From NCBI GenBank assembly GCA_009885205.1, contig VFLE01000046.1, forward strand, positions 1 through 39,670: a DNA stretch of 39,670 nucleotides. The letters are read 5' to 3'. The notes under the pieces are model-generated. The model did not search any database, was not told where the DNA came from, and worked only from the letters and a program-made list of their open reading frames with translations. This document shows, one piece after another, positions 3,343-24,842 of this stretch. Each line of letters opens with the position of its first letter. Position 1 is the first letter of the stretch. Both the position numbers and the translations under genes were made by a program. The stretch is from Candidatus Shapirobacteria bacterium (GTDB lineage Bacteria > Patescibacteriota > Microgenomatia > UBA12405).

Positions 3343-3534
3343 TATACCAATGCTCGCTGTTAGGCTCGACATATTTTAAAAAGGGTTTATATTAAGGTCG
3401 GCAAACCAGAAACCCTGCTCTTGTAAAAGCTCCGTAACTGATAACTCGGTAAGCTACAAGAAAGACCAAGGTTGGTATAATGTACCTATAGCGCTTCCCG
3501 TAAGATCAGCCTTTAGGTCTTTTGTTAGTTAGTT
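3343..3534 (+). ncRNA. candidate structured RNA (class unassigned) in a GC-rich non-coding island
   Basis: No ORF longer than 10 codons and visibly higher GC than the flanks. A closing helix pairs tataccaa 3343-3350 with ttggtata 3472-3479. Nested helices pair gggttt 3383-3388 with aaaccc 3410-3415, and tcttgta 3419-3425 with tacaaga 3455-3461. An intrinsic terminator follows. Confidence 0.35.
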
Positions 3535-9823: not shown

Positions 9824-10045
9824 ATGAAAGAACAAAGTTTAGTTGAAATGAAAAATAAAGTTGAAGCACTTATTAGAGTGCTTCAAAATGTTATGGATGA
9901 ACAACAGCATTTAACTGTATTAGCAGCTGGAACATTAGAAACAATTAAATTAATGCCTGGTTATGACGATGCTATTAAAGCAATGACTGAAAAAGCTAGT
10001 AAGGAATTAGAAGAAAGTAAACCAAAACCGGTTTTAAATACTTAA
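9824..10045 (+). CDS. hypothetical protein (73 aa), last gene of the + block
   Basis: ORF track. A strong hairpin terminator follows it. Confidence 0.5.
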   Translation: MKEQSLVEMKNKVEALIRVLQNVMDEQQHLTVLAAGTLETIKLMPGYDDAIKAMTEKASKELEESKPKPVLNT

Positions 10046-10147: not shown

Positions 10148-13100
10148 TTACTTTAAACCTGGTGATTTTAAACCACCACCTGAAAGACCTGGAGATTTTA
10201 AACTACTACCTCTAGTCGCAGATCCTGAATCTTCTTCTTTATCTTTTATACCTAAATTCTGCTTACTATATCCAAAAATCATAGCTATTCTCTGCCAATC
10301 TTCATTTTGAGAATCAAGTGCACCAGCTATATTTTGTATTTTTTGATAAATTCTATCTACAGGTATGTTTGTACTTACTGATATAAAAGAAGAAGAAGCT
10401 TCTACTATAGATTTAGTAGGTATAACTTTATCTCCTTCTGGATTGAATTCTTTATTATATTCTAATGCTTTTATACCTTTAAGAATCTGTCTAAACTTAA
10501 TACCAACCATTGGTGATATATTAAGTAATTCAAGAACTGGTGCATAAACTCCTTCTGGTGTTCCAGTAGTATCGTACCATTTTATTAATGCATTTTTAAC
10601 AACTGAAAGAGCAACGTAGTTCATGCCCATACCTTTTAGAATATTGTCAGCAATTCCATTTACCGTTCTAGTAATTCTTTGTTTACTATCTTTTTCTTTC
10701 TTTTCTTCATCATCGTCATCATCACCCCACATTATAGCAAATACTAAGTTTTGTAAAGCATTAAACATAATATTCTGCAAAGCGCCGTAATACACGATTT
10801 TACCTACATTGTTAGCAAGACTTCCCCTGCCTTTAACAATATCTATTGCAGCTTTTTTCATAATTCTGGAATACTGAAAAGGTGTATTCATAAATGATAA
10901 AAGAATTCTACCTGTTGTACTTGCTTGATTAGCAGATATTTTAGATACGTCAGCAGATTGTTGGGATTTTTCAGATGTTTGATAGAAATCACTCATCGTC
11001 TTTTTCTCAGCTTGTTCGTCTGTATAACCTTGTTTTTTATATGTGTTTAATCTATTTCTATAAAAACTAGAACCACCAAAAGCAATAGCAACAGCATCGA
11101 ATACTCTAGTAGCTATAAAACCGTTTGTTGAAATCCAATTTACAATACGTCTATATTTATTAATAGAATCATCTCCTTTTTGACTATCCATTAACTGAGC
11201 TATTTCAGACTCAGCAACATCATTCATAAGACCTGATCTTCTGTCTTTTAGATAAGGAGAATTCCAAAGATACTTTACATCTTGCCAGAATTGTTTTTGA
11301 TTAGCAAAAGCTAGTGCAACTTGTGCAATATTATTGTCAGATGTGTTGATAAAATTGACAGCACTTAAAAGTTGTAATACTGCAGATCTAGTATTAAGGA
11401 ACATTACATTTGCTGTAGATTTATTTAACCAGTTTAATAACTTACTGTTAGCACCTGGGTTTCTATTAGTACCACTTTTTAATCTACCTAGCATGTTTTT
11501 CAATGCTTTTACATATTCACCTCCATATACTGCTTCAATTTTGCTTAAGTTTTCTTTAGAGAAAATCTTATCAGCTCTATTCTGCCAGTCTTGTAGATAC
11601 TTAGCTCTATTCACCTTAGATATTATATCATTCATGTCACCTAAGATACTACCAAAACTCCAATTGCTTTCTGGTTCAACATATCCATTAGCTTGTTTAG
11701 AAAGTAAACTAACAGAATTAGCAAAATCTTTTAATTTAGGATTTGTCCTAACAATATCTGTTAAATTAAATTTATCTTTATTATTTATACCAGGTATTTT
11801 ATATCTTGCTTTATCCCATAAATAAACCCTAACAGCTTGATCGTATGTGTAACCTTCATAGCTAGTTTGTTGTGATAATAGTTTTATTATACCTTTATGT
11901 TGTTTAGTTATAACGTCTTTCCAATCACCATACATTTTCTGTCTAGCAACCATAAGTGTTGTCATAGCTTCACTATACGGTTTAATTAAGTTTTCGTTAA
12001 AGAATTCAAGTTGTGCTTCTCCCATTGCACCTTTTCCAGATGCCAATTTATACAACAAACCTTCAAAATCTTCATCACCTGGAGGAAGATATGCAAAATC
12101 TAATTTCTTTCCTTTACCAATGTTCTTTGCTGTTTCTTCTGAGAAAATTTCAGCCTTTGGAATCCCTTTGTTCTCTTCTATGATTTCATTCATAGTAAGT
12201 TCTAAATTAGAATTTCTAAAAGCTATTTGTTTTATCTTTTTAGAATTAGCATCTAAAGCGTCTAAGACTTGTTTCGTTAATGGACCATCAGCATTTTTCT
12301 TAACATGAAAATCAAAACTATTATAACCCTCAGCCATTTTATTTATTATAAAAGTAGCTATTGCTTTATCTGTAGATGTAGACATTCTAGGAACCTTAAA
12401 AGGAACTGTGTCTGCTTGAAACAAATCAGACATTTCTTGTCTAACCTTTTTTATTTCAATAGGATCAGTCTGCTTTTTTAATTTAGCAGTTAACTTATCC
12501 ATTTCTGTGTTTTTTGCAAGTTTTGATAATTTACCATTCATTATTGCTTTATCTATGTCTCTAGCAATAACAGATTGTTGTGTCAGATTTAAACCACTTA
12601 ACAAAGGACTTATTACCGCGTTAGCAGTCTCTGCTAAACTATATTTAATAGCAGAATCATTTTCTTTGTTTGATTTTATAACTGTTGTTTTATAGTAATA
12701 TCCACCACCAGCAGCTTCATTGTCTTCATCAAATATACCTACTCTTACTGATATTTCATTAGAACTAGAACCTATACTACTTTTTAATATACTTTCTTTT
12801 AATTCATCGGTTAATTGTTCTTTTATATTTATTTTTAGTTCATCTATAACTGCATCAACTACATTATTATCAGAAAATTGATACATGTTAATAAAATCTA
12901 TCGCTTTATCTTTTTTAGTAATATAACTATCCGTAAGATCGAGATGTAAAATACCAATACTTTCACCTCCAAACAACTCAACTTCTTTAGGTATTGAATT
13001 ATTGTGTTCTCCAATAAGCAATCTTAAATCATTTATTTTTTTTGGTAAATATATCATACTTGCTAAACCATAAAGATAAATTTGTTGGGTGTTAATAGCA

Positions 13101-16100
13101 CTTGAAATGTCTATCATAGATTTTTCTTGATCATCAAAAGTAGTTACTAAACTTAATATACCATTATGAAAATTTATAGGGTCCATAGATAACCAAAAAG
13201 TATCAAACTCATCTATATCTGAATTACGATCTATACTTGCATCAATGCTTAAATCATAGTAAATATGATCTGAAAGAGTAAGAAAAGCACGACCCTCCAT
13301 CATTTTACCTTGTATATCTAATTTATTTCCTTTCGTTAGATTAGGAGCGTCAAAACCGTATGCATTTACAAATGCAACAAAATCTATTTTTATTAAATTA
13401 GGCATGTCATAAGAACCTAATTTTCCATCTTGAAAACCTATTGTTATATATTCTTCGTCCATGTCTAATTTAAACTCGTCTTGACTTATTTCTTCTTGTT
13501 CTTTTAATATATCTAATTCGTCCTCTCTATTTATAAAAATTTGAAAATTAGAATCTATAATTTCTCTAATATTTCTTATAGGTTCAAGTAAATCTAACTT
13601 TCTTAATTCTCTTTTAATATTTCTTATTTTTTCTTCTAATTCTTGTCTTGAATCTACTTCTAATTCAAATCTAAATAAATTACCTCTATTTAAAGAAGAA
13701 ACATTTTTAATTAATTTAGTGTTTTTTTCTTTACTGTTATTTTTAAAGTCTACTTCATTTTCATCAGTTAATAATGAATATGCTAAATCCATAGAATCTA
13801 TATAATCCTGTTTTTCTTTGACATTTGAAAGTTTAAAAACTTCTGATATTAAAGGTATTTCTTCTGCTTTAAAACTTTGTCCTGCTTCTACACCAACAAC
13901 TTCTCCAACACCAGAATTAAGTCTGTCTTCAAATCTAACTGCTATTGATGGTTTGTAATCATTATCTGATGCTATAAAAAAGTCTCCATTTGTTAAATGT
14001 GTAGTAGCATAACCCAAAGATCTTTGACCAGTACACCATAAAGCATTTGAATTTATATTTCTAGAAGCTAGAGAGTTTAATGATAAGATATTTTCTTCTT
14101 TATCACTTTTATCAAACTTAAATATTTTTTTATTATCAGAGTCTGAAACTTTTCTATTGTTTTCCCAATCAGAAATATATTTTTCATTTTTTTGCATGTT
14201 TAAAAAACCGTAAATAAATGCAGGATTTTTTAATTCAGTATGACTGTAATTCTCAAATACTTTTTTTATTAATTCTTCATCATTATAAGAATCTATAGGT
14301 GTCAAAGTTGTGTTATATTGAGATCTTTTAAACGGTTTTCTTTCAACTACTTGATTTATAGGATTAGAAATATATCTATTAGATAATGCATCATTTAAAA
14401 ACAAATATGCAAAGAAAGGATTTAATTTTAAACCATTAGGTTTTTCATATTTTACAGTGGCATCTTCATTCCATTCTTCTGCACCTGGTTTAATATTATT
14501 AATGTAACCTCCATTATGCCATGCGGCAGTTGGTATTTTTTCAAAATTTTCACCTTCTTCATCTATAAAATTAATTTTAAAATCACCTCTGTACCAAACA
14601 CTTTCTAATAATAACTGAATAGATTCATATTGTAATTCTTGTTTTTTGAAAATATCTTCTTCTCTATAAGTATCATTATTTTTTAAAGCTGTAAAATGAT
14701 CTATATAATTTTGATCGCCTTCATTTATAGCTTTCTCAAGCATTCTATCTATGTAATCTTCTGTATAATCTTTAATCAAAAAAGGATTAATAGCACCATT
14801 GGTATTTCCTATTGGTATATTCATTGAATCTATTAATTCTATTATTCTTCTAACAACTTCCTTTTCAACTTCTTCATAATTTTTAAGAGTATGAAGTTTT
14901 AAACTTCCTGGGGTTGTATCTACAGTATCAGAGTATTGCAATACTTTTACATAATAGTTTTTATTAGAAGTAAAATAATTATCTATAATAATTGTATTTG
15001 AATCACTAAGTTTATCAGTTGGTCTTTTTACTATATCTTTGTAATTGTTTTCGTATTTTTTATTATAACCTTTATAAACGGCAACACCTGAAATTAAGTC
15101 AGATTCTTGATCTAATACTTCAGATAAACTAAATTTAATTGTATCACTAATAACTGGCATAGAATCTACACCATAATAAACATTATTCGCTATTCCTTCT
15201 GATAAAGCTTTTTGAGTTTTTAATAGTTGAGTTTTATTCAATAATTTATATTGACCTTGTCTTTTTTCTTCTTCTAAACTGAATTTAACTGAACTACTTT
15301 TACCTTTAGCCAAATCATTAAGAACTTGTGTTCTAATAACATCATCTTTAAGACTGTTGTATAGGTTAGGTTTCTCTTGACCTATTTGCTCTATAAAATC
15401 AGGATTACGTAGTAATCTTCTCGCTTCTTGAAGAACCATTACGTCTCCAAACAACTCTCTTAATGCTGTTCTTCTATCGAACCAAGCATTAGTTGTTAGT
15501 TTTTCGTAATCTAAGAATTTTGAAATTTCTTCTTCAGGATTAACTGAATTGTATTTTCTTATTATTTTCTTTGCATCTTCTTCAGAGTAAAATGATTGAA
15601 GGAAAACTGCTCTATTAATATCTGCAACTTTTTGAAATTCTCCTTTTTCATTTCTTTCTTTTAAATACGGAGGTATTTTTTTAGAAGCATAACTAGATTG
15701 ACCTGTAACTTCATCTACTGGATTATTTATTACATCATATACTAATTTCCAATTATTATACATGAGTGATTCAAGTCCTTCGCCTGTTTCAAATGTGATT
15801 CTTTTCATCATCACCATAGATCTATCTGCTAGTAACTTTTTAAAGTTTCTAAATTCTAGTGTTTCTACATTTGGAGATCTTAATATTTCATCTGCAACTT
15901 GTCTAGCAACAATCCTAGCTGGTGATTCTTTTTTGATTATAGCTTTAAATACATACTCAACATTTCCAGTAGTTAAATTAAATGCTTTTGTAGGTTTTAA
16001 AGACTTGAGTTCTTGTTTCTCTTCAGGAGTTAAAGGTTCTTCTTTATTTTGTAAATCTAAACCTCTCTGTAAGTCTCTTAGATCTTTTTTTAATTCTTCT

Positions 16101-19100
16101 ATTCTAACTGAATCTGTTTCTGTTTTTAATTGTTTATTAACTTCTATACCTTTATCTTTAGCAGAAATTACATAGTCACCACGCTCAGGAACTGTATCTA
16201 TAATAACTTCATCTCCTTTTTCATCAACAAATCTAAATACAGGATCTTTTAATATATTGGCTAACTTTTCTTGTTCTTCATTAAAATCTTCAGTAGCTTC
16301 CATTACATCAACACTATCTCCTAATAAATAATCAAGTTCTTCACCAATGTCTGTAGTGCCTCTTCCTTCTACGAAATCTTCTCCGTCAAAGTCTAAATCA
16401 AATTTTTCATCTACTATACCTGCTCTTTTAAGAGCATTTCTCATCTTATTTAAAACCTGAGAGTTTATCCAACCATTTAAACTGTTGTTCTCTTTAACGA
16501 TGCCTTTTTTACCTTTGTAACCTTCTGCATCTTTAGCGTCTAATATTTCTTTAAACTCTTTAGAGTTTGGATCAAAACCTTTAGAAATTAAATCTTGTTT
16601 ATATTCTTCTCTTAATTCTAGAAACTCTTTATTAAAATTTCGTATATGAGGTAATAGTTCAGCTTGTGTTTCACGTACAAAATCCTCTTCACGGTCTTTT
16701 CTGTCTTTTTTAAAACCAGGTAAACTAAAAAATTTTTCTGACTTAGCTTTACCCCTTATTAAATATTCATACTCCTCAACTATATCCCACAGTAAAGGAT
16801 CTCTTTGACTGTTCATCTTTTGTGTAAATGTTTCTTTATTATAAGCATTGTCAACATCTCTCTTTATATCATCTGATGATTTTTTCTCTCCTGATCTTCT
16901 ATCACCACCTAAAGACGGTTTTACTTCACTACTACCAGAGCCTTGAGATACTACAATATTCTCACCAGTTTCTAATCTCAATGCTTCTTTGTCTATAAAT
17001 GCTTTTGATTGACCCAACGTTCTCATTGCACCTATACCAGGAATACCAAAATTACCAGTTGTAACACTTTTATTATAATCTTTTAGAAAATTGTATACAT
17101 CTCTACCGGATTTAAACTCTACTTTTCTAAGTCCTAAGTTCTGTAAGACTTGTCTGACTGTGTCTTTTAAACCAGTAAATACATTTTCATTGAACTGAAC
17201 AGAACCGTTACTAATAGCATCAGAATACAACGTTAAAACCTCTTCCCATGAATTACCCATGAGTTCACTTACTTTTTCGTCATATTGTCTTTTGTACTTT
17301 GGATCTTTTTGTAATTTTAAATCTTCGGCAGCAATTTTATCCATGTAAAAATTAGAATACTTATTGATTCTATCTCTAAATGCTTGCGGAAGAACTGTGT
17401 TCTCATCAGATACAGTCTTACTTATTTTTATTATTTCTTTATGTAATGCTTTACCTAATAGAATTTGAGATTCTGGACTATTTTTTAAAGTTTCATATAT
17501 TAAACCATGTAAAAACTCATGTTGTGCAACATCAGTAGTTCCACCTTTAATAGAAACATCTTCGTTTACAAATATAACTTTCTTACCTTTTACTATTTTA
17601 CTTGTATCTTTACCAGATTGATTCGCATATTTTGTAAGTAATACATCGTCAAGAAAGAATCCTCCTCTTTTAGAATTAGTATCAGCTTCATCTTCTGGCA
17701 TACCAACTACATCTATTAGATATTGTTTTATTTCAGCACTAGAACCAAAAGTCTGCATTTCTATATCTTTTATTACTTTCTTATCTATAGCTGCTTTAAT
17801 TAACTTATTTTTAGTCTCTAAATCATCTGCATAGTATAAATCATCAGCAATTTTTTCCTCTTTCTTTATCTTCTCATCTATCGATGGATGAAAAGCTTTG
17901 TCTAAAGATTCTTTCTCGTCTTTTAATTTTTGTATTTTATCTAAAGATCTTAAGATAGGCATAGCGGCTTTTGCGGACACACTTTTAGGCATCTTATTGG
18001 CATTGTTAGAATATATATCTACATCTGCTTTTAAGTTGTCTACTTCTTCTTTAGTGAAAACTTCTTTTTTGTAAAGATTATCTACTACTTGGTTGAATTC
18101 ATCTTTATTCTTAGATAAAGTACTCAAAGCTCTTAACTTATCAAGGTCTTCATTCTTTGCCTTAAAATTAGGAATTTTAGCTTTAGCCATTAATCCAGAT
18201 GATATAAATGAAATCATAGAGGTGTTCATGAAATCATCACCAGATATAGTTTCGTTCATTATCTTCCTACCAGCGTCTTTATTTGTAAGGGCATTTACAC
18301 CCATTGTTTCACCAGCTTGTTGTATATTTTCTTGAACAACTTCTTTTAATCCATCTTCAACAAATCCTGTAAGTTCTTTAGGTGCATTTTTTATTGCTGA
18401 ATTAAGATAATTAACAAATCCAGTCTTACCTTGTTTTTTAAATGTTTCTACAGCTTGTTTAACTGTATTTTTTAAAAATAATTTATTAGCGAGATTTGTT
18501 TGTGGATTTATTGGAGTAGTTATGGCATATAATATACCCATTCTTTCAGCCGCTACACCTGCTAATTCGTATGCTTCATCGTCATCAACACCAGACGCTT
18601 TAAGTTCTCTAAAAGTATCCTCTAACCCAGATGAATACCCCATACCACCTTGAGCAATCATAGTATAACCAAGATCTCTTTTAATAGGTAGTTTTTTCAT
18701 CATCTTAGATGAATAATTCATAAGTCCAAGAGAAGAACTAGGCAAAGGTCTAGGACCAAGTGCCATGGTTGCTTTACCAGCCATTGCTGCTCTACCAGCA
18801 CTTGCTACATAACCTAGATTTCCAACTGCTCCTGCTATAACTGATTGAAGTACCATGTCGGCAATAACACCTGTTGTAGTAACAGCAGCTCCTTGCGTAC
18901 TAAATATATAATCAGATTGTCCAGTCTTTGATTTACTTACTATCTCATCATATTGATTTTTATCTAATAAATCTGTTACTACTATATCATCATCAGCATC
19001 ATAAACATTTTCTTTTGCATCTACTAAGTAATTAGTACCATTAGATTTAGCAGTTTTTCCAGAAACATAACCAACGCCTCTAGTATTTGGTTTTAATAAC

Positions 19101-20335
19101 ATGTTTTCATCTGCTACTAATCTAGAACCTTCCGCTTGTGTATCAAGTCCAAGAACATCCATTGTTGTCGCTGTTGTATTTATTATTCTATCAGCAGACA
19201 TATTCCACGCATTCTTGGCTATTTTAACCGGCGTATCCCAACTCCAAAAGTCAGTTCCACCAGCTTTAGCCTCTTTATATAGTTTCTTATTCTCTAAATC
19301 TAACTCGTCCATCTTTTTTACATAAGTTGGAAAGTTTGTTTTATAGTAATCGTATAAAGCTCTATTGTCAAATAACTCGTTCTTCTTTATCTCTTTTTGT
19401 TCTCTTATTCCTTTGTATATTTCTTCATCTTGAGTAAGATCTTGTCTAAGAAAGTCCCTATTGTTCATGTCCTGCATGTATAGATCTAGTGCCTTCTTTT
19501 TAGACATCTCTCTAGCAAGGTCAATATCATAACCATGCATTATAGATCTACCAGAACCTTCAAATACTCCTTGTTCTTGTTTCTTTAATATATTCTTCTT
19601 CTGTCCGCTTTTATTCAACCAACCATCGAAGTTGTCTAAATTTACACCAGCTTTACTTAAAGCTTTAGTATCATAGTTGTTAGCAATAAAATTAACACTA
19701 GGTTCTTCTAGATCTTTTGCCTCTTCTATATTAAGTAAATTACCTTGATCACCTCTCTGTTTCTTCATATTTGAAGAATAGTATAGATACGGGTTTATTA
19801 AATCAATATCATTTAACTTTTGTTTTCTTTTTATATCACTTAATTGAATAAGTCTATTATTTTTTACAATAATATCTTTTGGTAAATTATCTTCTTCTTC
19901 TTCAAAAGTAGTTGGAGTAGTTTTAAAACCTTCTGATTTAAAACCTTTCATAGATTTAGGAAGAGGTTCTTGTGGTCTAATTGCCTTAGATTCTAGATCT
20001 TGACTTCTTTCTATTTTACGACTAGTAATCTTATTTAATCTATCAGTATAGTTTAAAAAAGGTTTTAGTTTTTCTTTTTCAGAAGGCGGAGCGATGAATC
20101 CTAATCGTTGTAAGTTTAAATCAGCTTGAGAACGTGCATCCCAAGAACCATCTGTTGATTCTGATACCAAACTCCTTGATTGTGTTTTTTTTACCGGCGC
20201 TACAACTGCACTCTTTGCACCGCCTTTGAACTTTTTTGCTCCTTCATTATTTAATAAGAATTGCATTTTCTCTAATTGAGAATATTTTGATATATCAACT
20301 GTTGATCCGTCCGGTAAAGTATATAAGTCTTCCAT
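10148..20335 (-). CDS. giant virion-associated protein (3,395 aa), candidate internal/ejected polyvalent protein with a zincin-like motif
   Basis: Single uninterrupted 10.2-kb ORF and last gene of the structural operon. It contains an HEFLH motif, Gly/Ala-rich hydrophobic segments and an acidic patch WGDDDDDEEKKEKD. Most of it has no family I can name. Confidence 0.6.
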   Translation of the reverse strand: MEDLYTLPDGSTVDISKYSQLEKMQFLLNNEGAKKFKGGAKSAVVAPVKKTQSRSLVSESTDGSWDARSQADLNLQRLGFIAPPSEKEKLKPFLNYTDRLNKITSRKIERSQDLESKAIRPQEPLPKSMKGFKSEGFKTTPTTFEEEEDNLPKDIIVKNNRLIQLSDIKRKQKLNDIDLINPYLYYSSNMKKQRGDQGNLLNIEEAKDLEEPSVNFIANNYDTKALSKAGVNLDNFDGWLNKSGQKKNILKKQEQGVFEGSGRSIMHGYDIDLAREMSKKKALDLYMQDMNNRDFLRQDLTQDEEIYKGIREQKEIKKNELFDNRALYDYYKTNFPTYVKKMDELDLENKKLYKEAKAGGTDFWSWDTPVKIAKNAWNMSADRIINTTATTMDVLGLDTQAEGSRLVADENMLLKPNTRGVGYVSGKTAKSNGTNYLVDAKENVYDADDDIVVTDLLDKNQYDEIVSKSKTGQSDYIFSTQGAAVTTTGVIADMVLQSVIAGAVGNLGYVASAGRAAMAGKATMALGPRPLPSSSLGLMNYSSKMMKKLPIKRDLGYTMIAQGGMGYSSGLEDTFRELKASGVDDDEAYELAGVAAERMGILYAITTPINPQTNLANKLFLKNTVKQAVETFKKQGKTGFVNYLNSAIKNAPKELTGFVEDGLKEVVQENIQQAGETMGVNALTNKDAGRKIMNETISGDDFMNTSMISFISSGLMAKAKIPNFKAKNEDLDKLRALSTLSKNKDEFNQVVDNLYKKEVFTKEEVDNLKADVDIYSNNANKMPKSVSAKAAMPILRSLDKIQKLKDEKESLDKAFHPSIDEKIKKEEKIADDLYYADDLETKNKLIKAAIDKKVIKDIEMQTFGSSAEIKQYLIDVVGMPEDEADTNSKRGGFFLDDVLLTKYANQSGKDTSKIVKGKKVIFVNEDVSIKGGTTDVAQHEFLHGLIYETLKNSPESQILLGKALHKEIIKISKTVSDENTVLPQAFRDRINKYSNFYMDKIAAEDLKLQKDPKYKRQYDEKVSELMGNSWEEVLTLYSDAISNGSVQFNENVFTGLKDTVRQVLQNLGLRKVEFKSGRDVYNFLKDYNKSVTTGNFGIPGIGAMRTLGQSKAFIDKEALRLETGENIVVSQGSGSSEVKPSLGGDRRSGEKKSSDDIKRDVDNAYNKETFTQKMNSQRDPLLWDIVEEYEYLIRGKAKSEKFFSLPGFKKDRKDREEDFVRETQAELLPHIRNFNKEFLELREEYKQDLISKGFDPNSKEFKEILDAKDAEGYKGKKGIVKENNSLNGWINSQVLNKMRNALKRAGIVDEKFDLDFDGEDFVEGRGTTDIGEELDYLLGDSVDVMEATEDFNEEQEKLANILKDPVFRFVDEKGDEVIIDTVPERGDYVISAKDKGIEVNKQLKTETDSVRIEELKKDLRDLQRGLDLQNKEEPLTPEEKQELKSLKPTKAFNLTTGNVEYVFKAIIKKESPARIVARQVADEILRSPNVETLEFRNFKKLLADRSMVMMKRITFETGEGLESLMYNNWKLVYDVINNPVDEVTGQSSYASKKIPPYLKERNEKGEFQKVADINRAVFLQSFYSEEDAKKIIRKYNSVNPEEEISKFLDYEKLTTNAWFDRRTALRELFGDVMVLQEARRLLRNPDFIEQIGQEKPNLYNSLKDDVIRTQVLNDLAKGKSSSVKFSLEEEKRQGQYKLLNKTQLLKTQKALSEGIANNVYYGVDSMPVISDTIKFSLSEVLDQESDLISGVAVYKGYNKKYENNYKDIVKRPTDKLSDSNTIIIDNYFTSNKNYYVKVLQYSDTVDTTPGSLKLHTLKNYEEVEKEVVRRIIELIDSMNIPIGNTNGAINPFLIKDYTEDYIDRMLEKAINEGDQNYIDHFTALKNNDTYREEDIFKKQELQYESIQLLLESVWYRGDFKINFIDEEGENFEKIPTAAWHNGGYINNIKPGAEEWNEDATVKYEKPNGLKLNPFFAYLFLNDALSNRYISNPINQVVERKPFKRSQYNTTLTPIDSYNDEELIKKVFENYSHTELKNPAFIYGFLNMQKNEKYISDWENNRKVSDSDNKKIFKFDKSDKEENILSLNSLASRNINSNALWCTGQRSLGYATTHLTNGDFFIASDNDYKPSIAVRFEDRLNSGVGEVVGVEAGQSFKAEEIPLISEVFKLSNVKEKQDYIDSMDLAYSLLTDENEVDFKNNSKEKNTKLIKNVSSLNRGNLFRFELEVDSRQELEEKIRNIKRELRKLDLLEPIRNIREIIDSNFQIFINREDELDILKEQEEISQDEFKLDMDEEYITIGFQDGKLGSYDMPNLIKIDFVAFVNAYGFDAPNLTKGNKLDIQGKMMEGRAFLTLSDHIYYDLSIDASIDRNSDIDEFDTFWLSMDPINFHNGILSLVTTFDDQEKSMIDISSAINTQQIYLYGLASMIYLPKKINDLRLLIGEHNNSIPKEVELFGGESIGILHLDLTDSYITKKDKAIDFINMYQFSDNNVVDAVIDELKINIKEQLTDELKESILKSSIGSSSNEISVRVGIFDEDNEAAGGGYYYKTTVIKSNKENDSAIKYSLAETANAVISPLLSGLNLTQQSVIARDIDKAIMNGKLSKLAKNTEMDKLTAKLKKQTDPIEIKKVRQEMSDLFQADTVPFKVPRMSTSTDKAIATFIINKMAEGYNSFDFHVKKNADGPLTKQVLDALDANSKKIKQIAFRNSNLELTMNEIIEENKGIPKAEIFSEETAKNIGKGKKLDFAYLPPGDEDFEGLLYKLASGKGAMGEAQLEFFNENLIKPYSEAMTTLMVARQKMYGDWKDVITKQHKGIIKLLSQQTSYEGYTYDQAVRVYLWDKARYKIPGINNKDKFNLTDIVRTNPKLKDFANSVSLLSKQANGYVEPESNWSFGSILGDMNDIISKVNRAKYLQDWQNRADKIFSKENLSKIEAVYGGEYVKALKNMLGRLKSGTNRNPGANSKLLNWLNKSTANVMFLNTRSAVLQLLSAVNFINTSDNNIAQVALAFANQKQFWQDVKYLWNSPYLKDRRSGLMNDVAESEIAQLMDSQKGDDSINKYRRIVNWISTNGFIATRVFDAVAIAFGGSSFYRNRLNTYKKQGYTDEQAEKKTMSDFYQTSEKSQQSADVSKISANQASTTGRILLSFMNTPFQYSRIMKKAAIDIVKGRGSLANNVGKIVYYGALQNIMFNALQNLVFAIMWGDDDDDEEKKEKDSKQRITRTVNGIADNILKGMGMNYVALSVVKNALIKWYDTTGTPEGVYAPVLELLNISPMVGIKFRQILKGIKALEYNKEFNPEGDKVIPTKSIVEASSSFISVSTNIPVDRIYQKIQNIAGALDSQNEDWQRIAMIFGYSKQNLGIKDKEEDSGSATRGSSLKSPGLSGGGLKSPGLK
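17507..17521 (-). other. HEXXH (HEFLH) metallopeptidase-type motif inside the giant ORF (aa 939-943)
   Basis: The plus-strand sequence atgtaaaaactcatg is the reverse complement of cat gag ttt tta cat. The context is TTDVAQHEFLHGLIYETL, with Glu five residues after the second His. Confidence 0.5.
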
Positions 20336-20340: not shown

Positions 20341-22152
20341 TTATTTTATTGATTTTTTGTATCTAGCAACATATTGTAAATCTGTTTCATTTGAATTTTG
20401 AGGATTTGCTTTCATCCAATTAGATACATTATCTTGTTGTTGAGCTTCACCAACTTTATCTTGTAATTTTTTAATCTCTCCCTCACCAGCTGTAAAATCT
20501 AATGCTAGTCTCGCTCTACTAGATGCTTTATTTAAATCATAATTAGTTAATGCTCTATAATCACCAGGTGATTGTTCATAATATATATCTGATTTAGGGA
20601 ATCTAGAATTAAAAGATTTTTTAACACTCTCTTTAGTTAATTTTCCAGATGCGATTTGATCTCCAAAAGTTAAAGAAGCGTTTTCTTTAATTGGTTCTTG
20701 AAGGAATTTTTTATAAAGATCATCAGTAGTAATGAATTTACTTGTACTTTTAGCTAATCTATTTAGATTTTGAGCATAATATTTTCTAGATCTATAGTTG
20801 TAAACTCCTGGCGCTTCACCTGGTTTCTTTTTCACTCCAACTCTTAAGTTATTGTAATATTCACCTCTGTAATCTTCATTTTCTTCTGAATCAAGAATAC
20901 CATTATCGTTCTTATCTAATTTATTAGTTCCAACACCGCCTCCGGTTTTCTCTGGTTTTTCTCTTTCAACTACTTTTGAAGTAGGATTCCAATATACAGT
21001 TTTATCACCTTCTTTTGTTTGTTCAAACTCTTTAGTCATTCCTTGAAATGATTTTTCAGTCAGTAAATCAGTTAGCATTTGTTTTTGTTCTGCTGTACTT
21101 CTAGCATTACCTTTTTCATCAACTTTAAATACTTTATCGTAGTATTGTGGTCCTTGACCTAAAGAATAATTTAATAGAACTTTTAAACTAGAAGGATTGT
21201 CAGCTGATAATATACCAGTAGCCGTTACATTTGATTTTTTACCTATTTCTTTTCTTATTACATCTTCTTGCAGTCTTTGACCTTCTGTAATTTCATATTT
21301 TCTAGTACCTACACTTGGCAGTTGAACTGTTTCATATTTTGGATTTAAAAAACCAGTATATACTTTACTATCTTTACCCATTATTGTTTCCCTGGCTTGA
21401 GTATAAAAAGTATCCATACTTTCAACAGGTAGTAGTAAACCATCACCTAAGTTTTCTTCTGCGTCTATATATGATTTAGTGTTTATAGGTACATTAAAAG
21501 TTCTACCATCAGCATGCTGTCCACTTGCTGTTACTATAAAACCATCTCCTTCATCATCTAGAGTTACTTTTAGACTAGAACTTTTATATAAAGGATTACC
21601 ATCAGTCATACCGCTCAGAGATTCCACAAAAGCAGTATTATCTAGTATTTCGTTATCATCTTTACCGTTAATAACATATCCACCAGGTATTCCAATAGTA
21701 GAAGCTTTTGCTTTTAATCTATAAGTAGCAGCAACACCACCTAATGATTTACCAGCTTTAGCAGCATTTTCAAGTGCATTGTCGGCATTTCTTATAGTAG
21801 TTAAATACTCTTGTCTTTTAGTTGCATTAGTTTCATTCAACAAAGATATTCTAGCATCTGCAGCATCTATTACTTTTTGCCGAATTATATCTTTTATCTG
21901 TTTATTTACTTCTGGATTTATAGAAGATTGTTTTTCAGACCATTTAGACAGTTTTTCATTGTAGTAAAGATCTGTTTCATTCTTTCTATCTTGAAGTTTC
22001 TGTAATGTTAGTTTTTGTTCTTTTTCTTCAGCGCGTCTTCTTTCACCTCTAGCGATTAAACCTTGAGCAATAGATTCACCTGCTCTAGCAATAGAACTTC
22101 CTATAGTATCTTCACCAGGTTGTATAATTGGTGGATTTTCATAATATCCCAT
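20341..22152 (-). CDS. putative internal virion / ejection protein (603 aa)
   Basis: Called only by position, between the small Ala/Gly-rich protein and the giant protein (the T7 gp15-like slot). I see no recognisable motifs. Confidence 0.35.
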   Translation of the reverse strand: MGYYENPPIIQPGEDTIGSSIARAGESIAQGLIARGERRRAEEKEQKLTLQKLQDRKNETDLYYNEKLSKWSEKQSSINPEVNKQIKDIIRQKVIDAADARISLLNETNATKRQEYLTTIRNADNALENAAKAGKSLGGVAATYRLKAKASTIGIPGGYVINGKDDNEILDNTAFVESLSGMTDGNPLYKSSSLKVTLDDEGDGFIVTASGQHADGRTFNVPINTKSYIDAEENLGDGLLLPVESMDTFYTQARETIMGKDSKVYTGFLNPKYETVQLPSVGTRKYEITEGQRLQEDVIRKEIGKKSNVTATGILSADNPSSLKVLLNYSLGQGPQYYDKVFKVDEKGNARSTAEQKQMLTDLLTEKSFQGMTKEFEQTKEGDKTVYWNPTSKVVEREKPEKTGGGVGTNKLDKNDNGILDSEENEDYRGEYYNNLRVGVKKKPGEAPGVYNYRSRKYYAQNLNRLAKSTSKFITTDDLYKKFLQEPIKENASLTFGDQIASGKLTKESVKKSFNSRFPKSDIYYEQSPGDYRALTNYDLNKASSRARLALDFTAGEGEIKKLQDKVGEAQQQDNVSNWMKANPQNSNETDLQYVARYKKSIK

Positions 22153-22171
22153 ATCTTATTTTTTTTATATT

Positions 22172-22903
22172 TTATGCACCACCACTTGCAAAACCACCAG
22201 CAATACTACCAACAGCGCTTATAGCACCACCTATAGCAGCACTTTGAGCCTGTTTAGCCGCTGCTTGATTAGTTCTTGCTTGAGCTTCTTGTCCTGATAA
22301 TCTATTAAGTTTAGATATATCTCTAGACTCTTGTTCACCATATTGAAATTTAATACCTTCTGTTTCAGCTGCTTGTATTCTTTGTCCTTCACTAAACTGA
22401 ACTCCTTGAATTCTTTGAGCTTCAGCCATTTTCTGTTCTTGCATTTTAGCAGCGCCTTCTGCTTTCATTTTTTCATTATTAGACTCTTGTTGTTCAATAC
22501 TAGCTGACACACCTTTCTTACTTTGTAATGCCGCTTGAGCTAAAGCAGTAGCTCCACCAGCACCAGAGCCAGTAGATCTAATAGTATCTAAAGTATTAGC
22601 TAATGAAATATCAGTTTCTTCTGCTTGCATCTTAGCCGCTTGAGTTGCGACTCCTAGATTAGCAAAAGGATTACTTATCATACCACTAAGATCTTTAGCG
22701 ATTCCACTTAAGTCTTTTATGTTAGCATAAGGATTTGGAATAGCCTGTCTATTTGCTTCTATAGCAGCTATTTCACCTGCTTTTCTCGCTGCTTCATTCG
22801 CGTAACCTTTACCTGCTTGTTTAGCTTGGTTATTTTGAATCAATCCTCCTCCTACTGCAGCGGCTACTGCTACGCCTGCCGCTATTGCTGTTACTACTGC
22901 CAT
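22172..22903 (-). CDS. Ala/Gly/Gln-rich protein with hydrophobic termini (243 aa), putative membrane-inserting internal virion protein
   Basis: N-terminus MAVVTAIAAGVAVAAAVGGGLI, C-terminus AIGGAISAVGSIAGGFASGGA, and a Q/A/E-rich helical middle. It sits just upstream of the 603-aa and giant genes. Confidence 0.4.
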   Translation of the reverse strand: MAVVTAIAAGVAVAAAVGGGLIQNNQAKQAGKGYANEAARKAGEIAAIEANRQAIPNPYANIKDLSGIAKDLSGMISNPFANLGVATQAAKMQAEETDISLANTLDTIRSTGSGAGGATALAQAALQSKKGVSASIEQQESNNEKMKAEGAAKMQEQKMAEAQRIQGVQFSEGQRIQAAETEGIKFQYGEQESRDISKLNRLSGQEAQARTNQAAAKQAQSAAIGGAISAVGSIAGGFASGGA

Positions 22904-22904
22904 A

Positions 22905-23312
22905 TTATGCTATTTTTTTTGAAATTTCGTAAGAAGGATTATCGTCTACCGTATATCCTAATTCTTTGTGCACCTTTAATAATCCCTTATTTCTACCTAC
23001 ACTCAATATTATTTTGTATCCTTGAGATACAGCTACGTCTTCTAATCCTTGAACTAAAAGTTTCAAAGCATCTACTCTATCGTCTTCCCTATATTCAGGA
23101 TCAGATACGATCCACTCTGTCCATGCAACCTTAGCGTTTGTAAGATACAAAAAACCAGAAGCAATAGATTTACCATGTTTTTCAATAATAAGTCCTCCTA
23201 AGCCTTCTAATGGCATTAAGTCTTTAGTTACTTCAGGCCAACCCCAGGCTTTCCACCATAGTTGCATTGTTTCCCAATCTGATTCTTGTAATGCTCTTGT
23301 TTTTAATTCCAT
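22905..23312 (-). CDS. GNAT-fold (acetyltransferase-like) protein, 135 aa, divergent cofactor motif
   Basis: WIVSDPEYREDDRVDALKLLVQGLEDVAVSQGYKIILSVGRNKGLLKVHKELGYTV follows the GNAT motif A/B layout (V-PeyR ... G-- i-L-v ... lGy). The usual R/Q-x-x-G-x-G/A loop is replaced by REDDRVD. Confidence 0.55.
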   Translation of the reverse strand: MELKTRALQESDWETMQLWWKAWGWPEVTKDLMPLEGLGGLIIEKHGKSIASGFLYLTNAKVAWTEWIVSDPEYREDDRVDALKLLVQGLEDVAVSQGYKIILSVGRNKGLLKVHKELGYTVDDNPSYEISKKIA

Positions 23313-23327: not shown

Positions 23328-24800
23328 TTAATATACTGAAAAGTCATAATTTGTCGATGCTGAAAATAATTCTTTAACACCTCTTGGATCTGTAACAGTA
23401 TCTATTGACATATCTACTACAGCAAAATACCCTTTTATTCCAGATATTTCATTTCCAAAAGACACTTCTCCCTGCGTAGGTAAACTTTTATTTACTAACG
23501 CTGCCATGTATTTATTTTCTTTTCTATCAAAACCGGCTCTATTTATAGGCGGATATAATGTGCTTGGATACGAATTACCATATTCATCATAAGACCCTTC
23601 AACATAACTAAATACAGATGGAGTTGTTAAAACACCTGTTGTATCTTGTGTTTGAATATAATTAGGGGCTAAGTAATCTACTCCTGTAAAATCTGATACA
23701 AAAGAATCCACTTGCCAGCCATTAGAACCCTCGTAGTTTACAGTTTTAAAAATTTTAACATTACTTGGAGACTCATTAAAAACAAACCTAATAGAGGCAT
23801 TATTATTTACATTGTAAAACCTACACCTTGTATTCACTGCTTGATTGTAGTGTTTCCAAAGTGCTCCCTGATTTAAAGAATAGAATTTACCTTTTAAACT
23901 AACCATTTGAGAAGGTTTAAAAGTATAAAAACTAGTAAAACCATTTGCTTCTTCATTAAATCCTAAGGTATTATATGTCTGTGTAATATTCGTACTTGAT
24001 GTTTGAGTAGATATTATATACTGTTTACTATAAGCATCCCACCCACTAACTACCTTTCCTGGTCCACCTGTAGTTGGGGTTGCATCTATATTAGAAAATT
24101 CATCCCTAAAATAATCAATCATTCCATATTGTGATATTTCAGTTATACCGTCTTGAGATAATCTTAATACAGCATTTCTATATCTATCCGTAAAATACTT
24201 TCTATAACCATAGACAGCAAAACTTCCTGGATCTTTACTTATACCATAAACTCCGGCGTAACCTTGAATCTGACCAATAACAACATTTGATGATGTTAAC
24301 GTTCCCTCTCCTTCTGCAGAATATATAGCGTCTTTATCAATCAAAGCTCTGCTTACTTTATTCTCTTGGAAAACAATTAAATTTGTATCTTCGGCATATA
24401 GCCTTTGAATAGAGCCATTCGCTGGATCTAAACTTTTTGTTATCTCTTCTCCAGACGAAAATTGGTTTGTATTATTAACGCCCGTTCTTGAATTAAATAT
24501 ACCAGAATATATAAGTGAATTAGGCCTAATGGATGCCGAATTATTAATATCAACTATGTACGCTTTAACACCTAAATCAACAGATAAATTATTATATCCA
24601 CCTCTTATTCTAGCTTCTTCAATAACCCACTCTTTGCCTGGTTCAGCTACAACAGAGGATATAGGATAGCCTGTATTAGCCCCGTTTATAGTAGTTGGTA
24701 TCCCAAAAGAACCTCCCCAAACGGGATTATTTGATTCGTTTGGAAATACTTTTTTAAGTAAAAACGTATTAAAATATTTTATTTCTATTACCGCACTCAT
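23328..24800 (-). CDS. putative tail structural protein (490 aa)
   Basis: Called by position between the tail and internal-protein genes. The composition is beta-rich (G/S/T/N/Y), and I recognise no family. Confidence 0.4.
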   Translation of the reverse strand: MSAVIEIKYFNTFLLKKVFPNESNNPVWGGSFGIPTTINGANTGYPISSVVAEPGKEWVIEEARIRGGYNNLSVDLGVKAYIVDINNSASIRPNSLIYSGIFNSRTGVNNTNQFSSGEEITKSLDPANGSIQRLYAEDTNLIVFQENKVSRALIDKDAIYSAEGEGTLTSSNVVIGQIQGYAGVYGISKDPGSFAVYGYRKYFTDRYRNAVLRLSQDGITEISQYGMIDYFRDEFSNIDATPTTGGPGKVVSGWDAYSKQYIISTQTSSTNITQTYNTLGFNEEANGFTSFYTFKPSQMVSLKGKFYSLNQGALWKHYNQAVNTRCRFYNVNNNASIRFVFNESPSNVKIFKTVNYEGSNGWQVDSFVSDFTGVDYLAPNYIQTQDTTGVLTTPSVFSYVEGSYDEYGNSYPSTLYPPINRAGFDRKENKYMAALVNKSLPTQGEVSFGNEISGIKGYFAVVDMSIDTVTDPRGVKELFSASTNYDFSVY

Positions 24801-24842
24801 AGATTTATTATTACTTATTTATTAATTAATTTACTGTTAGCT

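What the first reader, a model, noticed from the sequence alone, without database searches (positions are those of the whole stretch)
10148..20335. 3,395-aa ORF closing the virion operon: candidate injected polyvalent / ejectosome giant protein
One uninterrupted 10.2-kb frame takes about a quarter of the window. It is the last gene of the late operon, after a 243-aa Ala/Gly/Gln-rich protein with hydrophobic ends and a 603-aa protein. That ascending trio occupies the slot of the T7 gp14/15/16 internal core, and the giant is also placed like N4 gp50 (the ~3,500-aa virion RNA polymerase) at the end of a late operon. Several features are readable directly. HEFLH lies at aa 939-943 (nt 17507-17521) with Glu five residues later, a zincin-type signature. 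A Gly/Ala-rich hydrophobic stretch (VIADMVLQSVIAGAVGNLGYVASAGRAAMAGKATMALG) lies near nt 18750-18900. Hydrophobic segments flank WGDDDDDEEKKEKD near nt 10690-10740. There is a duplicated LKSPGL at the extreme C-terminus, and long K/E-rich linkers occur throughout. I find no convincing T7-like (R-x3-K-x7-YG, HDS) or multisubunit (NADFDGD) polymerase motif. Most of the 3.4k residues match nothing I can name. Giant multi-domain virion-delivered (polyvalent) proteins are known to carry enzymatic effector domains such as metallopeptidases, so this is the most likely place for new biology in the window.
Basis: partly seen in the sequence, partly recalled or inferred. Interest (0 to 1): 0.8.

Follow-up and report, generated by a model that had tools for sequence, protein, structure and literature searches.

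The report
Giant injected phage protein, sigma-like domain
The 3,395-residue gene is real and is most likely a giant protein carried inside the phage particle and injected with the DNA; it has a conserved zinc-protease module and, unexpectedly, a segment resembling the core-binding part of a bacterial sigma factor.

Summary
It is the last gene of the virion module of a Flavobacteriia podophage related to Elemovirus and Cellulophaga phi38:1/phi40:1. It follows crAss-muzzle-like tail genes and 135/243/603-aa genes that mirror T7 gp13-16 and N4 gp52-51-50.

No library (Pfam, PHROGs, NCBIfam, PDB, 50,697 phage genomes) recognises it, and about 50 metagenomic relatives define an orphan family. All 16 long members share one order: N-terminal region with a Gly/Ala-rich hydrophobic stretch, HExxH module, sigma-70 region-2-like module, variable middle, and a ~740-aa all-helical C-terminal module.

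HExxH is kept in 31 of 32 sequences, with a near-invariant Glu1032. The C-terminal model matches later segments of viral proteins named as polyvalent in BFVD. The sigma-like call rests on sub-threshold Pfam hits and hhalign P=1e-5 with clean controls, but Foldseek did not confirm it.

The positional analogue in phi40:1 is a virion protein by MS/MS.

The parts
10148..20335 (-). Whole giant ORF, 3,395 aa, about 385 kDa, pI 5.5; last gene of the virion module
17696..20335 (-). N-terminal region (aa 1-880). About 45% identical to L002 although the next 900 aa are about 90% identical. No match to any family.
18755..18907 (-). Gly/Ala-rich, moderately hydrophobic stretch (aa 477-527). Comparable stretches lie in the N-terminal third of every homologue and of the positional analogues. 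Inferred to be a membrane-active segment.
17054..17587 (-). Zincin-like metallopeptidase (MPTase) module, aa 917-1094. Contains HEFLH 939-943 (nt 17507-17521) and near-invariant Glu1032 (nt 17240-17242) in WEEVLTLYSDAI, with a variable insert between them.
16802..17053 (-). Low-complexity linker (aa 1095-1178, GSGSSEVKPSLGGDRRSGEKKSS...), pLDDT below 50 in the model. Candidate processing site (inference).
16418..16801 (-). Sigma-70 region-2-like module (aa 1179-1306). The 45-aa insert at aa 1238-1282 (nt 16490-16624) lies where sigma factors have the loop between regions 2.2 and 2.3. Always directly downstream of the MPTase in the family.
15263..16348 (-). Family-specific middle region (aa 1330-1691). 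Conserved in L002 (~90%) and L003 (~55%). No match outside the family.
12668..15262 (-). Variable cassette (aa 1692-2556). Absent from L003 and only 20-36% identical to L002. Lowest GC of the gene. Only family members found among 1.84 billion representatives.
10235..12448 (-). Conserved all-helical C-terminal module (aa 2630-3367), 36-54% identical in all relatives. The model matches later segments of viral giant proteins named as polyvalent in BFVD, and nothing in the PDB.
10598..10786 (-). Two moderately hydrophobic helices flanking the acidic patch WGDDDDDEEKKEKD (aa 3184-3246). A weak (E=0.26) match links this helix-plus-acidic-patch motif to the otherwise dissimilar giant of MW202828.1.
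10154..10201 (-). C-terminal tail with LKSPGL twice. Kept in L002 and as LKVPEL/LVTPEL in L003. Other relatives have basic or Cys/His tails.
20341..23312 (-). Three upstream genes: 135 aa (weak GNAT hit; homologous to elemo gp69 and weakly to MS-detected phi40:1 gp098), 243 aa (Ala/Gly/Gln-rich, hydrophobic ends) and 603 aa. They are positional counterparts of T7 gp13/14/15 and N4 gp52/51.
23328..28364 (-). Two genes (490 aa and 1,173 aa) that match the crassvirus muzzle protein. Together they correspond to phi40:1 gp097.

Best explanation
The ORF encodes a virion-internal cargo or ejection protein of about 385 kDa. It is the counterpart, in a Flavobacteriia podophage, of T7 gp16 / N4 gp50 / the crassvirus giant cargo proteins, and it is built like a phage 'polyvalent protein'.

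Inferred mechanism:
1. It is made late and packaged in the capsid. The conserved all-helical C-terminal module probably mediates this, by analogy with the N4 gp50 C-terminal region, which is needed for encapsidation.
2. On infection it is extruded through the portal, tail and muzzle after the 243-aa and 603-aa proteins. Its Gly/Ala-rich and C-terminal hydrophobic helices help build or cross the envelope conduit.
3. The parts that reach the cytoplasm act at the very start of infection. The zincin-like peptidase (HEFLH939-943 plus Glu1032) cuts the polyprotein at flexible linkers, or cuts a host target.
4. The adjacent sigma region-2-like module engages host RNA polymerase. This either starts transcription on the entering genome or competes with host sigma.
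5. The middle cassette (aa 1692-2556) is an exchangeable, lineage-specific payload. Some relatives carry a Zeta-toxin kinase in this part of the protein.

Shown here: the gene, its motifs, their conservation, the fixed module order, the mosaic divergence, and the synteny. Inferred: packaging, ejection, proteolysis and RNA polymerase binding.
For: Context:
- Terminase, portal, capsid-like and crAss-muzzle-like genes precede it.
- The 135/243/603/3,395-aa series mirrors T7 gp13-16 at 138/196/747/1,318 aa and N4 gp52-51-50.
- In crAss001 the muzzle gene is followed by cargo proteins and giant RNAP-associated proteins found in virions (PMC10172136).
- Relatives have a giant in the same slot: elemovirus gp72 (3,757 aa), MW202828.1 (3,859 aa), Panino (1,829 aa) and phi40:1 gp101 (1,691 aa).
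- phi40:1 gp098-gp101 are annotated as virion proteins from MS/MS.

Peptidase:
- The chance expectation for HExxH is 0.0065.
- HExxH is kept in 31/32 sequences, and E1032 is near-invariant.
- The layout of two predicted strands (the MPTase definition has three), a helix carrying HExxH, a variable insert and a helix carrying Glu largely fits the MPTase definition of Iyer et al. (PMC5512222).
- The only sub-threshold Pfam hits are zincins.
- hhalign of the family profile against the HExxH region of elemo gp72 gives Prob 94.7%, P=6e-8. Against the N4 gp50 MPTase it gives P=0.009.

Polyvalent character:
- The C-terminal model gives 37 BFVD hits at E<=1e-3. They include segments of proteins named ART-PolyVal, MuF C-terminal and large polyvalent protein-associated domain.
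- A Zeta-toxin cassette occurs in L007 and P0027.
- Mosaic identity to L002 is ~90%, ~45% and 20-36% in different blocks.

Sigma-like module:
- Pfam Sigma70_r2 is the top or only hit for three of four tiles tested; the L005 tile gave none. E=1.2e-4 at 22.3 bits against a cut-off of 24, then 0.015 and 0.043.
- 5 of the 11 PDB profile hits are sigma factors aligned at region 2, led by T4 gp55.
- hhalign against a region-2 alignment gives Prob 82%, P=1e-5. Reversed and shuffled decoys give P>=0.4.
- Sigma profiles against five other giants give P>=0.15.
- The module follows the MPTase in all 16 long members.
Against: - There is no direct evidence that this protein is in virions.
- No sequence or profile similarity was found to T7 gp16, the N4 gp50 C-terminus, phi40:1 gp101 or the C-termini of the elemo, MW202828.1 and Panino giants. 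The link to them is positional, plus a moderate structural match of a medium-confidence model (pLDDT 62.8).
- Foldseek of the peptidase/sigma tile found neither zincins nor sigma factors in the PDB (best E 1.2). The peptidase part of that model is of low confidence.
- All sigma evidence is sub-threshold or pairwise. P0018-type members gave no Pfam sigma hit.
- No region 4 is present.
- No hydrophobic segment reaches a typical transmembrane score.
Confidence: 0.7

Rival explanations
1. It is a purely structural ejectosome protein. The giant only builds the internal core and the trans-envelope channel. The HExxH module acts solely in capsid maturation. The sigma-like similarity is a chance resemblance of helices, so nothing acts on host machinery.
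For: The C-terminal model is all-helical, as reported for internal virion proteins (PMC4819975). Foldseek found no sigma or zincin fold. Every sigma score lies below the curated threshold.
Against: The MPTase-sigma-like pair is kept in that order in all 16 long members, across 20-30% identity. hhalign gives P=1e-5 with clean decoys, and the top local hit over 3,207 columns falls on that exact segment. Relatives carry a Zeta-toxin kinase, which has no structural role.
Confidence: 0.2
2. It is a virion RNA polymerase, like N4 gp50 or the crassvirus giants, that has diverged beyond recognition.
For: It occupies the same genomic slot and has the same size class as N4 gp50 and the crAss001 RNAP-associated giants. 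One DxDxD string lies at aa 1313-1317.
Against: It has no Pfam, PHROG or NCBIfam hit. tblastn of aa 1-3000 against 50,697 phage genomes found nothing. PDB profile searches found no polymerase. The DxDxD string is lost in L002 (DLDFGG) and L003 (TEDIEG). The phage encodes its own sigma-like protein, which implies use of host polymerase.
Confidence: 0.04
3. It is a late-expressed protein that is not packaged, for example a cytoplasmic or envelope anti-defence or superinfection-exclusion giant that merely sits at the end of the operon.
For: There are no proteomic data for this phage. The C-terminal module has no sequence link to MS-verified virion proteins.
Against: It starts 5 nt after the upstream gene in the virion module. 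The positional analogues and their three upstream genes are MS/MS-verified virion proteins in phi40:1. The C-terminal fold is shared with viral proteins named as polyvalent.
Confidence: 0.05

Closest known systems
Phage polyvalent proteins (Iyer, Burroughs, Anand, de Souza, Aravind 2017, PMC5512222)
   Same: It is a giant multi-module protein encoded among virion genes of a portal-terminase phage. A zincin-like MPTase acts as the conserved hub. Cassettes are exchangeable (Zeta toxin in relatives). The C-terminal model matches segments of proteins named ART-PolyVal, MuF-C or LPD.
   Different: None of the catalogued polyvalent-protein domains (ART, MuF, SNF2, methylase, ArdC-N, LPDs) is detectable by Pfam. 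A sigma region-2-like module is not among the domains that paper describes; the word 'sigma' occurs 0 times in it.
Coliphage N4 gp50 with gp51/gp52 (PMC13434306; PMC4819975)
   Same: It is the last gene of the virion module, about 3,400-3,500 aa, preceded by a small protein and a ~600-aa protein. N4 gp50 also contains an MPTase, and its C-terminal region is needed for encapsidation.
   Different: It has no T7-like polymerase. hhalign of the C-terminal profile against the gp50 C-terminus gives no match. The MPTase match is weak (P=0.009). Here the MPTase lies in the N-terminal third, not the C-terminal third.
T7 internal core proteins gp13-gp16
   Same: The order and ascending sizes agree: 138/196/747/1,318 aa against 135/243/603/3,395 aa. 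Both sets come just after the tail or nozzle-type genes.
   Different: No sequence or profile similarity was found. No lytic transglycosylase domain is present. This protein is 2.5 times larger.
Crassvirus cargo proteins and RNAP-associated giants (crAss001 gp45-gp50, PMC10172136)
   Same: The upstream 1,173-aa and 490-aa genes match the crassvirus muzzle protein above Pfam's cut-off. In crAss001 the muzzle gene is followed by cargo proteins and giant virion-packaged proteins.
   Different: It has no similarity to crassvirus RNAP subunits, and no PHROG hit.
Elemovirus gp72, MW202828.1 3,859-aa protein and Cellulophaga phi40:1 gp101
   Same: All occupy the same slot in related genomes, whose portals are 34-49% identical to the window's. 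Elemo gp72 shares the MPTase (P=6e-8). phi40:1 gp101 is MS-verified in virions.
   Different: Outside the MPTase there is no detectable sequence similarity. No sigma-like module is present in them. phi40:1 gp101 has no HExxH.
Sigma-70 family region 2, in particular sigma2-only phage factor T4 gp55
   Same: The helix pattern and key motif are in register with regions 2.1-2.4..EDF..E....L..HIRNFNPE..dSLyGWInsql.Nk matches ..DL.QE....L...a..Fdp..g.f.tWL..ia.N. T4 gp55 is the best sigma hit in the PDB search.
   Different: The module is embedded in a 385-kDa protein. It has no region 4. In this phage it carries a 45-aa insert where sigma factors have the loop between regions 2.2 and 2.3. All scores are below family thresholds.

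Membership tests
Phage polyvalent proteins (Iyer et al. 2017) | Large protein combining several unrelated domains, at least one of them enzymatic | tested here: met
   An HExxH module, a sigma2-like module and a conserved C-terminal module are present. Relatives L007 and P0027 carry a Zeta-toxin/AAA_33 cassette.
Phage polyvalent proteins (Iyer et al. 2017) | Encoded among virion or late genes of a phage with portal-terminase packaging | tested here: met
   It is the last gene after terminase, portal, capsid-like and muzzle-like genes.
Phage polyvalent proteins (Iyer et al. 2017) | Shares catalogued polyvalent-protein domains (MPTase, ART, MuF, LPDs...) by sequence | tested here: inconclusive
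   There is no Pfam hit above threshold. The MPTase is inferred from motifs, from weak zincin hits and from hhalign P=0.009 against the N4 gp50 MPTase. The C-terminal model matches such proteins by structure only.
Phage polyvalent proteins (Iyer et al. 2017) | Packaged in the virion and delivered with the DNA | not testable with these tools
   The only support is indirect: the positional analogue phi40:1 gp101 is MS/MS-verified.
Zincin-like metallopeptidase (MPTase / gluzincin) | HExxH on one helix plus a Glu ligand on a later helix, both conserved | tested here: met
   HExxH is present in 31/32 sequences and E1032 is near-invariant. Both lie in predicted helices.
Zincin-like metallopeptidase (MPTase / gluzincin) | Zincin fold (three-stranded sheet plus active-site helices) recognisable by structure comparison | tested here: inconclusive
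   The model has pLDDT 55-70 in this part. Foldseek against the PDB found no zincin.
T7 gp16 / IVP-D family (Hardies et al. 2016) | Profile similarity to T7 gp16 or to the N4 gp50 C-terminal domain | tested here: not met
   hhalign gives P=0.37-0.54. These were single-sequence templates, so sensitivity was limited.
T7 gp16 / IVP-D family (Hardies et al. 2016) | Syntenic position after IVP-A/B/C-like genes, with extensively helical structure | tested here: met
   The gene order is 135-243-603-3,395 aa. The C-terminal model is all-helical. The 135-aa protein gives a weak GNAT hit, and IVP-A is reported to be GNAT-like.
Virion RNA polymerases (N4 T7-like; crassvirus double-psi beta-barrel) | Polymerase catalytic motifs or domain similarity, conserved in homologues | tested here: not met
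   No hits in Pfam, PHROGs, NCBIfam, PDB or tblastn. The DLDFD string at aa 1313 is not conserved.
Sigma-70 family | Region 2 (Pfam Sigma70_r2) at or above the gathering score | tested here: inconclusive
   The best score is 22.3 bits against a cut-off of 24, for relative P0009. The window tile, with the insert removed, gives E=0.015. hhalign gives P=1e-5 with clean controls. Foldseek gave no sigma hit.
Sigma-70 family | Region 4 (recognition of the -35 promoter element) | tested here: not met
   No Sigma70_r4 hit in the giant or in 18 relatives.
Sigma-70 family | Binds RNA polymerase core and directs promoter use | not testable with these tools
   This needs biochemistry.

The most novel reading that the evidence does not exclude
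The giant delivers a sigma-factor-like module from inside the virion. After ejection, and perhaps after release by the neighbouring metallopeptidase, the region-2-like domain clamps host RNA polymerase. This starts early transcription, or transcription-driven genome entry, on the incoming DNA. It would be the functional counterpart, in this phage lineage, of the virion RNA polymerases that N4 and crassviruses carry in the same genomic slot. I found no report of a virion-packaged sigma-like factor in the papers searched.
Probability: 0.25. Interest if true: 0.85.

Novelty: new variant of a known kind. Interest (0 to 1): 0.62.

Why it matters
Tailed phages with short tails must push proteins into the cell ahead of the DNA. 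In several lineages the largest of these proteins also carries the machinery for the first transcription. N4 brings a T7-like polymerase, and crassviruses bring a double-barrel polymerase.

This window shows a third solution may exist in abundant marine and freshwater Flavobacteriia phages. The slot and the giant size class are the same, and a conserved protease-plus-sigma-like pair stands where the other lineages have a polymerase. If the sigma-like module binds host polymerase, early takeover in these phages would be explained. It would also add a new domain type to the polyvalent-protein repertoire.

Independently of that, the family is almost entirely dark. An exhaustive search of its 1,200-aa middle region against 1.84 billion representatives found only 18 proteins. 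The family also shows block-wise cassette exchange, so it is a defined target for structural and proteomic work.

Tried and rejected
- Whole-protein search of the 5.8-billion collection timed out. Tiles were used instead.
- Pfam, PHROGs and NCBIfam on the whole protein found nothing.
- megablast, and tblastn of aa 1-3000, against 50,697 phage genomes found nothing.
- PDB profile searches of the C-terminal module, the HExxH region and the full-family alignment found nothing meaningful.
- Foldseek against the PDB found nothing for either model.
- A profile search with the MPTase-sigma alignment returned only 2 proteins.
- An exhaustive phmmer search of aa 1401-2600 returned only family members.
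- hhalign of the C-terminal profile against N4 gp50, T7 gp16, phi40:1 gp101, elemo gp72, MW202828.1 and Panino gave no match.
- hhalign of the 135/243/603-aa proteins against T7 gp13/14/15 gave no match.
- DLDFDG as a polymerase motif was rejected because it is not conserved.
- Glu948 as the third zinc ligand was rejected because it is not conserved.
- True transmembrane helices are not supported at Kyte-Doolittle >=1.5.
- No tRNA is present. There is no convincing terminator just after the stop codon: the one hairpin, at 9861-9886, lies inside a plus-strand ORF.
Full report
**Observation.** The ORF list gives a single uninterrupted frame at 10148..20335 on the minus strand, 3,395 aa with an ATG start. 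It begins 5 nt after the stop of the 603-aa ORF (20341..22152), which follows the 243-aa ORF (22172..22903).
- HEFLH at aa 939-943 (nt 17507-17521), with Glu948.
- The Gly/Ala-rich stretch at aa 490-527 (nt 18755-18868).
- WGDDDDDEEKKEKD at aa 3203-3216 (nt 10688-10729), between two moderately hydrophobic helices.
- LKSPGL twice, at aa 3379-3394.

The protein is about 385 kDa. It has only 17 His, so a chance HExxH is expected 0.0065 times. Plus-strand ORFs run to 10045 and converge on its stop, so it does close the minus-strand virion module.

**What phage this is.**
- PHROGs identifies the large terminase (37793-39598), the portal (35396-37789), a capsid-type virion protein (32708-34174) and further virion proteins on the minus strand. 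Replication and nucleotide-metabolism genes lie on the plus strand.
- The portal finds 87 phage records, all infecting Flavobacteriia. They are MW202828.1 (49% identity), Maribacter phage Panino, 68 Elemovirus records, Cellulophaga phages of the phi38:1/phi40:1 and phi18:3 groups, and Tenacibaculum phage Gundel.
- The 1,173-aa and 490-aa genes upstream match the Pfam crassvirus muzzle protein above its cut-off. Together they align with phi40:1 gp097.

**The slot.**
- In every related genome the virion module ends with a small, a medium and a very large gene. Examples of the large gene are MW202828.1 (3,859 aa), elemovirus gp72 (3,757 aa), Panino (1,829 aa) and phi40:1 gp101 (1,691 aa).
- In phi40:1 the last four genes, gp098-gp101, are annotated as structural 'based on experimental MS/MS proteomics analysis'.
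- The window's 135-aa protein is homologous to elemo gp69 (E=1e-21) and weakly to phi40:1 gp098 (E=0.007). It gives a weak GNAT hit. Hardies et al. describe T7 IVP-A as belonging to an acetyltransferase family (PMC4819975).
- The size series 135/243/603/3,395 aa mirrors T7 gp13-16 at 138/196/747/1,318 aa and N4 gp52/gp51/gp50 at 150/644/3,500 aa.
- In crAss001 the muzzle gene is followed by cargo proteins and by giant RNAP-associated proteins found in virions (PMC10172136).
- N4 gp50 is expelled together with gp51 and gp52 to form an ejectosome (PMC13434306).

**An orphan family.**
- The giant has no hit in Pfam, PHROGs or NCBIfam. It has none in 50,697 phage genomes by megablast or tblastn.
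- Tile searches of the 5.8-billion-protein collection and IMG/VR recovered about 50 relatives, all metagenomic. They include six near-full-length genes, L002-L007, of 2,312-3,522 aa.
- An exhaustive phmmer search of aa 1401-2600 against 1.84 billion representatives found 18 proteins, all of this family.
- The giants of MW202828.1, elemovirus, Panino and phi40:1 are not detected by family HMMs or by hhalign outside the peptidase. They are positional analogues that have diverged beyond sequence recognition. Hardies et al. report the same behaviour for internal virion proteins.

**Anatomy.** All 16 long family members have the same module order:
- An N-terminal region that contains a Gly/Ala-rich, moderately hydrophobic stretch.
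- An HExxH module (Q aa 917-1094).
- A low-complexity linker.
- A sigma region-2-like module (aa 1179-1306).
- A family-specific region (aa 1330-1691).
- A variable cassette (aa 1692-2556).
- A ~740-aa C-terminal module (aa 2630-3367).

Identity to L002 is mosaic. It is about 90% over aa 800-1700 and 2600-3395, about 45% over aa 1-700, and 20-36% over aa 1700-2550. L003 lacks the cassette altogether. The cassette DNA has the lowest GC of the gene. L007 and P0027 carry a Zeta-toxin/AAA_33 domain in the variable part.

**Peptidase.**
- HExxH occurs once per protein and is kept in 31 of the 32 sequences that cover the site. The exception, P0017, has NEFLH.
- The +5 Glu is not conserved.
- Glu1032, in WEEVLTLYSDAI, is invariant or nearly so. 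It is separated from HExxH by an insert of variable length.
- In the AlphaFold model both residues lie on helices that follow two strands.
- Apart from the model showing two strands where three are expected, this is the arrangement Iyer et al. give for the zincin-like MPTase of polyvalent proteins: three-stranded sheet, HExxH helix, variable insert, Glu helix (PMC5512222).
- The only weak Pfam hits of family members in this tile are zincins: SprT-like, DUF3267 and Peptidase_M78.
- hhalign of the family profile against the HExxH region of elemo gp72 gives Prob 94.7%, P=6e-8. Against the second HEFGH of MW202828.1 it gives P=6e-4, and against the N4 gp50 MPTase region P=0.009.
- Foldseek of the model found no zincin. 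The model is weak in this part (pLDDT 55-70), so the fold test is inconclusive.

**Sigma-like module.** About 250 residues after HExxH all members share a pattern that reads like sigma-70 regions 2.1-2.4, for example P0009 ...LPGFSEEDFINEGVAKLITHIRNFNPEKNDSLYGWINSQLENKAKQVL.
- Pfam Sigma70_r2 is the top or only hit for three of four tiles tested; the L005 tile gave none. The values are E=1.2e-4 (22.3 bits against a cut-off of 24), 0.043, and 0.015 for the window's tile with its insert removed.
- A PDB profile search returned 11 sequences at E<=10. Five of them are sigma factors aligned at region 2: T4 gp55 (0.079), 6pfv/6pfj (0.09), 8b3z (0.23) and RpoH (1.1).
- I ran hhalign of the family alignment against an alignment of region 2 from E. 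coli RpoE, FecI, RpoH, RpoS and FliA, T4 gp55 and the window's own sigma-like ORF. It gives Prob 82%, P=1e-5, with 68 columns in register.
- Controls were clean. Reversed decoys and 30 column-shuffled decoys give P>=0.4.
- The sigma profile scanned over the 3,207-column full-length alignment puts its best hit on aa 1218-1237.
- Five other giant proteins, about 14,600 aa in all, give P>=0.15.
- Subsets still give P=4e-4. Single sigma factors (RpoE, RpoH, RpoS and T4 gp55) give P=0.004-0.012, always at region 2; FecI, FliA and the window's own sigma-like ORF gave P=0.06-0.11.
- In the window's protein a 45-aa insert (aa 1238-1282) lies where sigma factors have the loop between regions 2.2 and 2.3. 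The model is confident here (pLDDT 75-85), yet Foldseek returned no sigma factor.
- No region 4 is detectable.

I rate true homology at about 0.6-0.7 and a host-polymerase-binding function at about 0.3.

**C-terminal module.** The model (pLDDT 62.8, pTM 0.56, all-helical) matches nothing in the PDB. In BFVD it matches 37 entries at E<=1e-3. After four members of its own family, one of them named UDP-GlcNAc kinase (which I take to be a Zeta-toxin domain), come entries with suffix _2 or _3. I take these to be later pieces of long proteins split for prediction; I did not verify this. They belong to viral giants named ART-PolyVal-like, Phage MuF C-terminal domain, large polyvalent protein-associated domain, PolyVal ADP-ribosyltransferase, restriction enzyme, nuclease, acetyltransferase and helicase. 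An elemovirus 'structural protein' piece also appears (E=2.7e-3), as does a Cellulophaga phi19:3 protein (E=0.03). The module therefore looks like a shared chassis of phage polyvalent proteins. By analogy with the N4 gp50 C-terminal region, it is the likeliest packaging or ejection determinant.

**Comparison and verdict.**
- The protein works like, and by context is, a phage polyvalent / internal-virion giant.
- Membership of the T7 gp16 / IVP-D sequence family was tested and not met.
- A virion RNA polymerase is not supported.

The third metal ligand is probably Glu1032. The peptidase is always paired with a sigma region-2-like module, which is the one really unexpected feature. Packaging, ejection, proteolysis and polymerase binding remain inferences.

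Noticed in passing
window 23328-24800 and 24843-28364 (minus strand): Two adjacent genes (490 aa and 1,173 aa) match the Pfam crassvirus muzzle protein families above cut-off. Together they align with the single 1,324-aa gp097 of Cellulophaga phage phi40:1. This is a split muzzle gene, and it links this Flavobacteriia podophage group to crassvirus tail architecture.
   Followed up: partly
window 380-1156 (plus strand): A 258-aa ORF hits PHROG 351 (RNA polymerase sigma factor) and Pfam Sigma70_r2 just below cut-off (23.2 bits against 24). The phage seems to encode its own free-standing sigma-like factor in addition to the module inside the giant.
   Followed up: partly
window 28371-31661 (minus strand): There are tandem paralogue pairs among the virion genes. 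The 230-aa and 247-aa ORFs both hit phrog_14543. The 202-aa and 405-aa ORFs both hit phrog_13977.
   Followed up: no
window 22905-23312 (minus strand): The 135-aa protein (phrog_17252) gives a weak GNAT acetyltransferase hit. It is homologous to elemo gp69 and the MW202828.1 136-aa protein, and weakly to MS-detected phi40:1 gp098. It may be an IVP-A-like internal protein.
   Followed up: partly
L007 giant aa 2393-2539; P0027: Some family members carry a Zeta-toxin/AAA_33 kinase cassette just upstream of the conserved C-terminal module. The window's protein has an unrelated cassette in that part.
   Followed up: partly
L006 and L007, last ~25 aa of the giants: The C-terminal tails differ by lineage. 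The window and L002 have LKSPGL twice, and L003 has LKVPEL/LVTPEL. L006 and L007 end in a Cys-x(12-13)-Cys-x-(Y)H pattern that could bind metal. L004 and L005 have Lys-rich tails.
   Followed up: no
window 12668-15262: The DNA of the variable cassette has the lowest GC of the gene, 0.26-0.28 against 0.30-0.32 elsewhere. It is also the block most diverged from L002.
   Followed up: partly
P0017 (metagenomic relative): One family member has NEFLH in place of HEFLH, so it may have an inactive peptidase module.
   Followed up: no
L010 (elemovirus gp72) aa 1386-1455: The elemovirus giant carries a Pfam DUF3293 domain (E=1e-12) about 150 aa upstream of its HExxH module. This is another cassette of unknown function in the same slot.
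   Followed up: no
window 9861-9886 (minus strand): The only terminator-like hairpin near the giant's 3' end lies about 260 nt past the stop codon and inside plus-strand ORF 9824-10045. The two convergent operons are only ~100 nt apart.
   Followed up: partly
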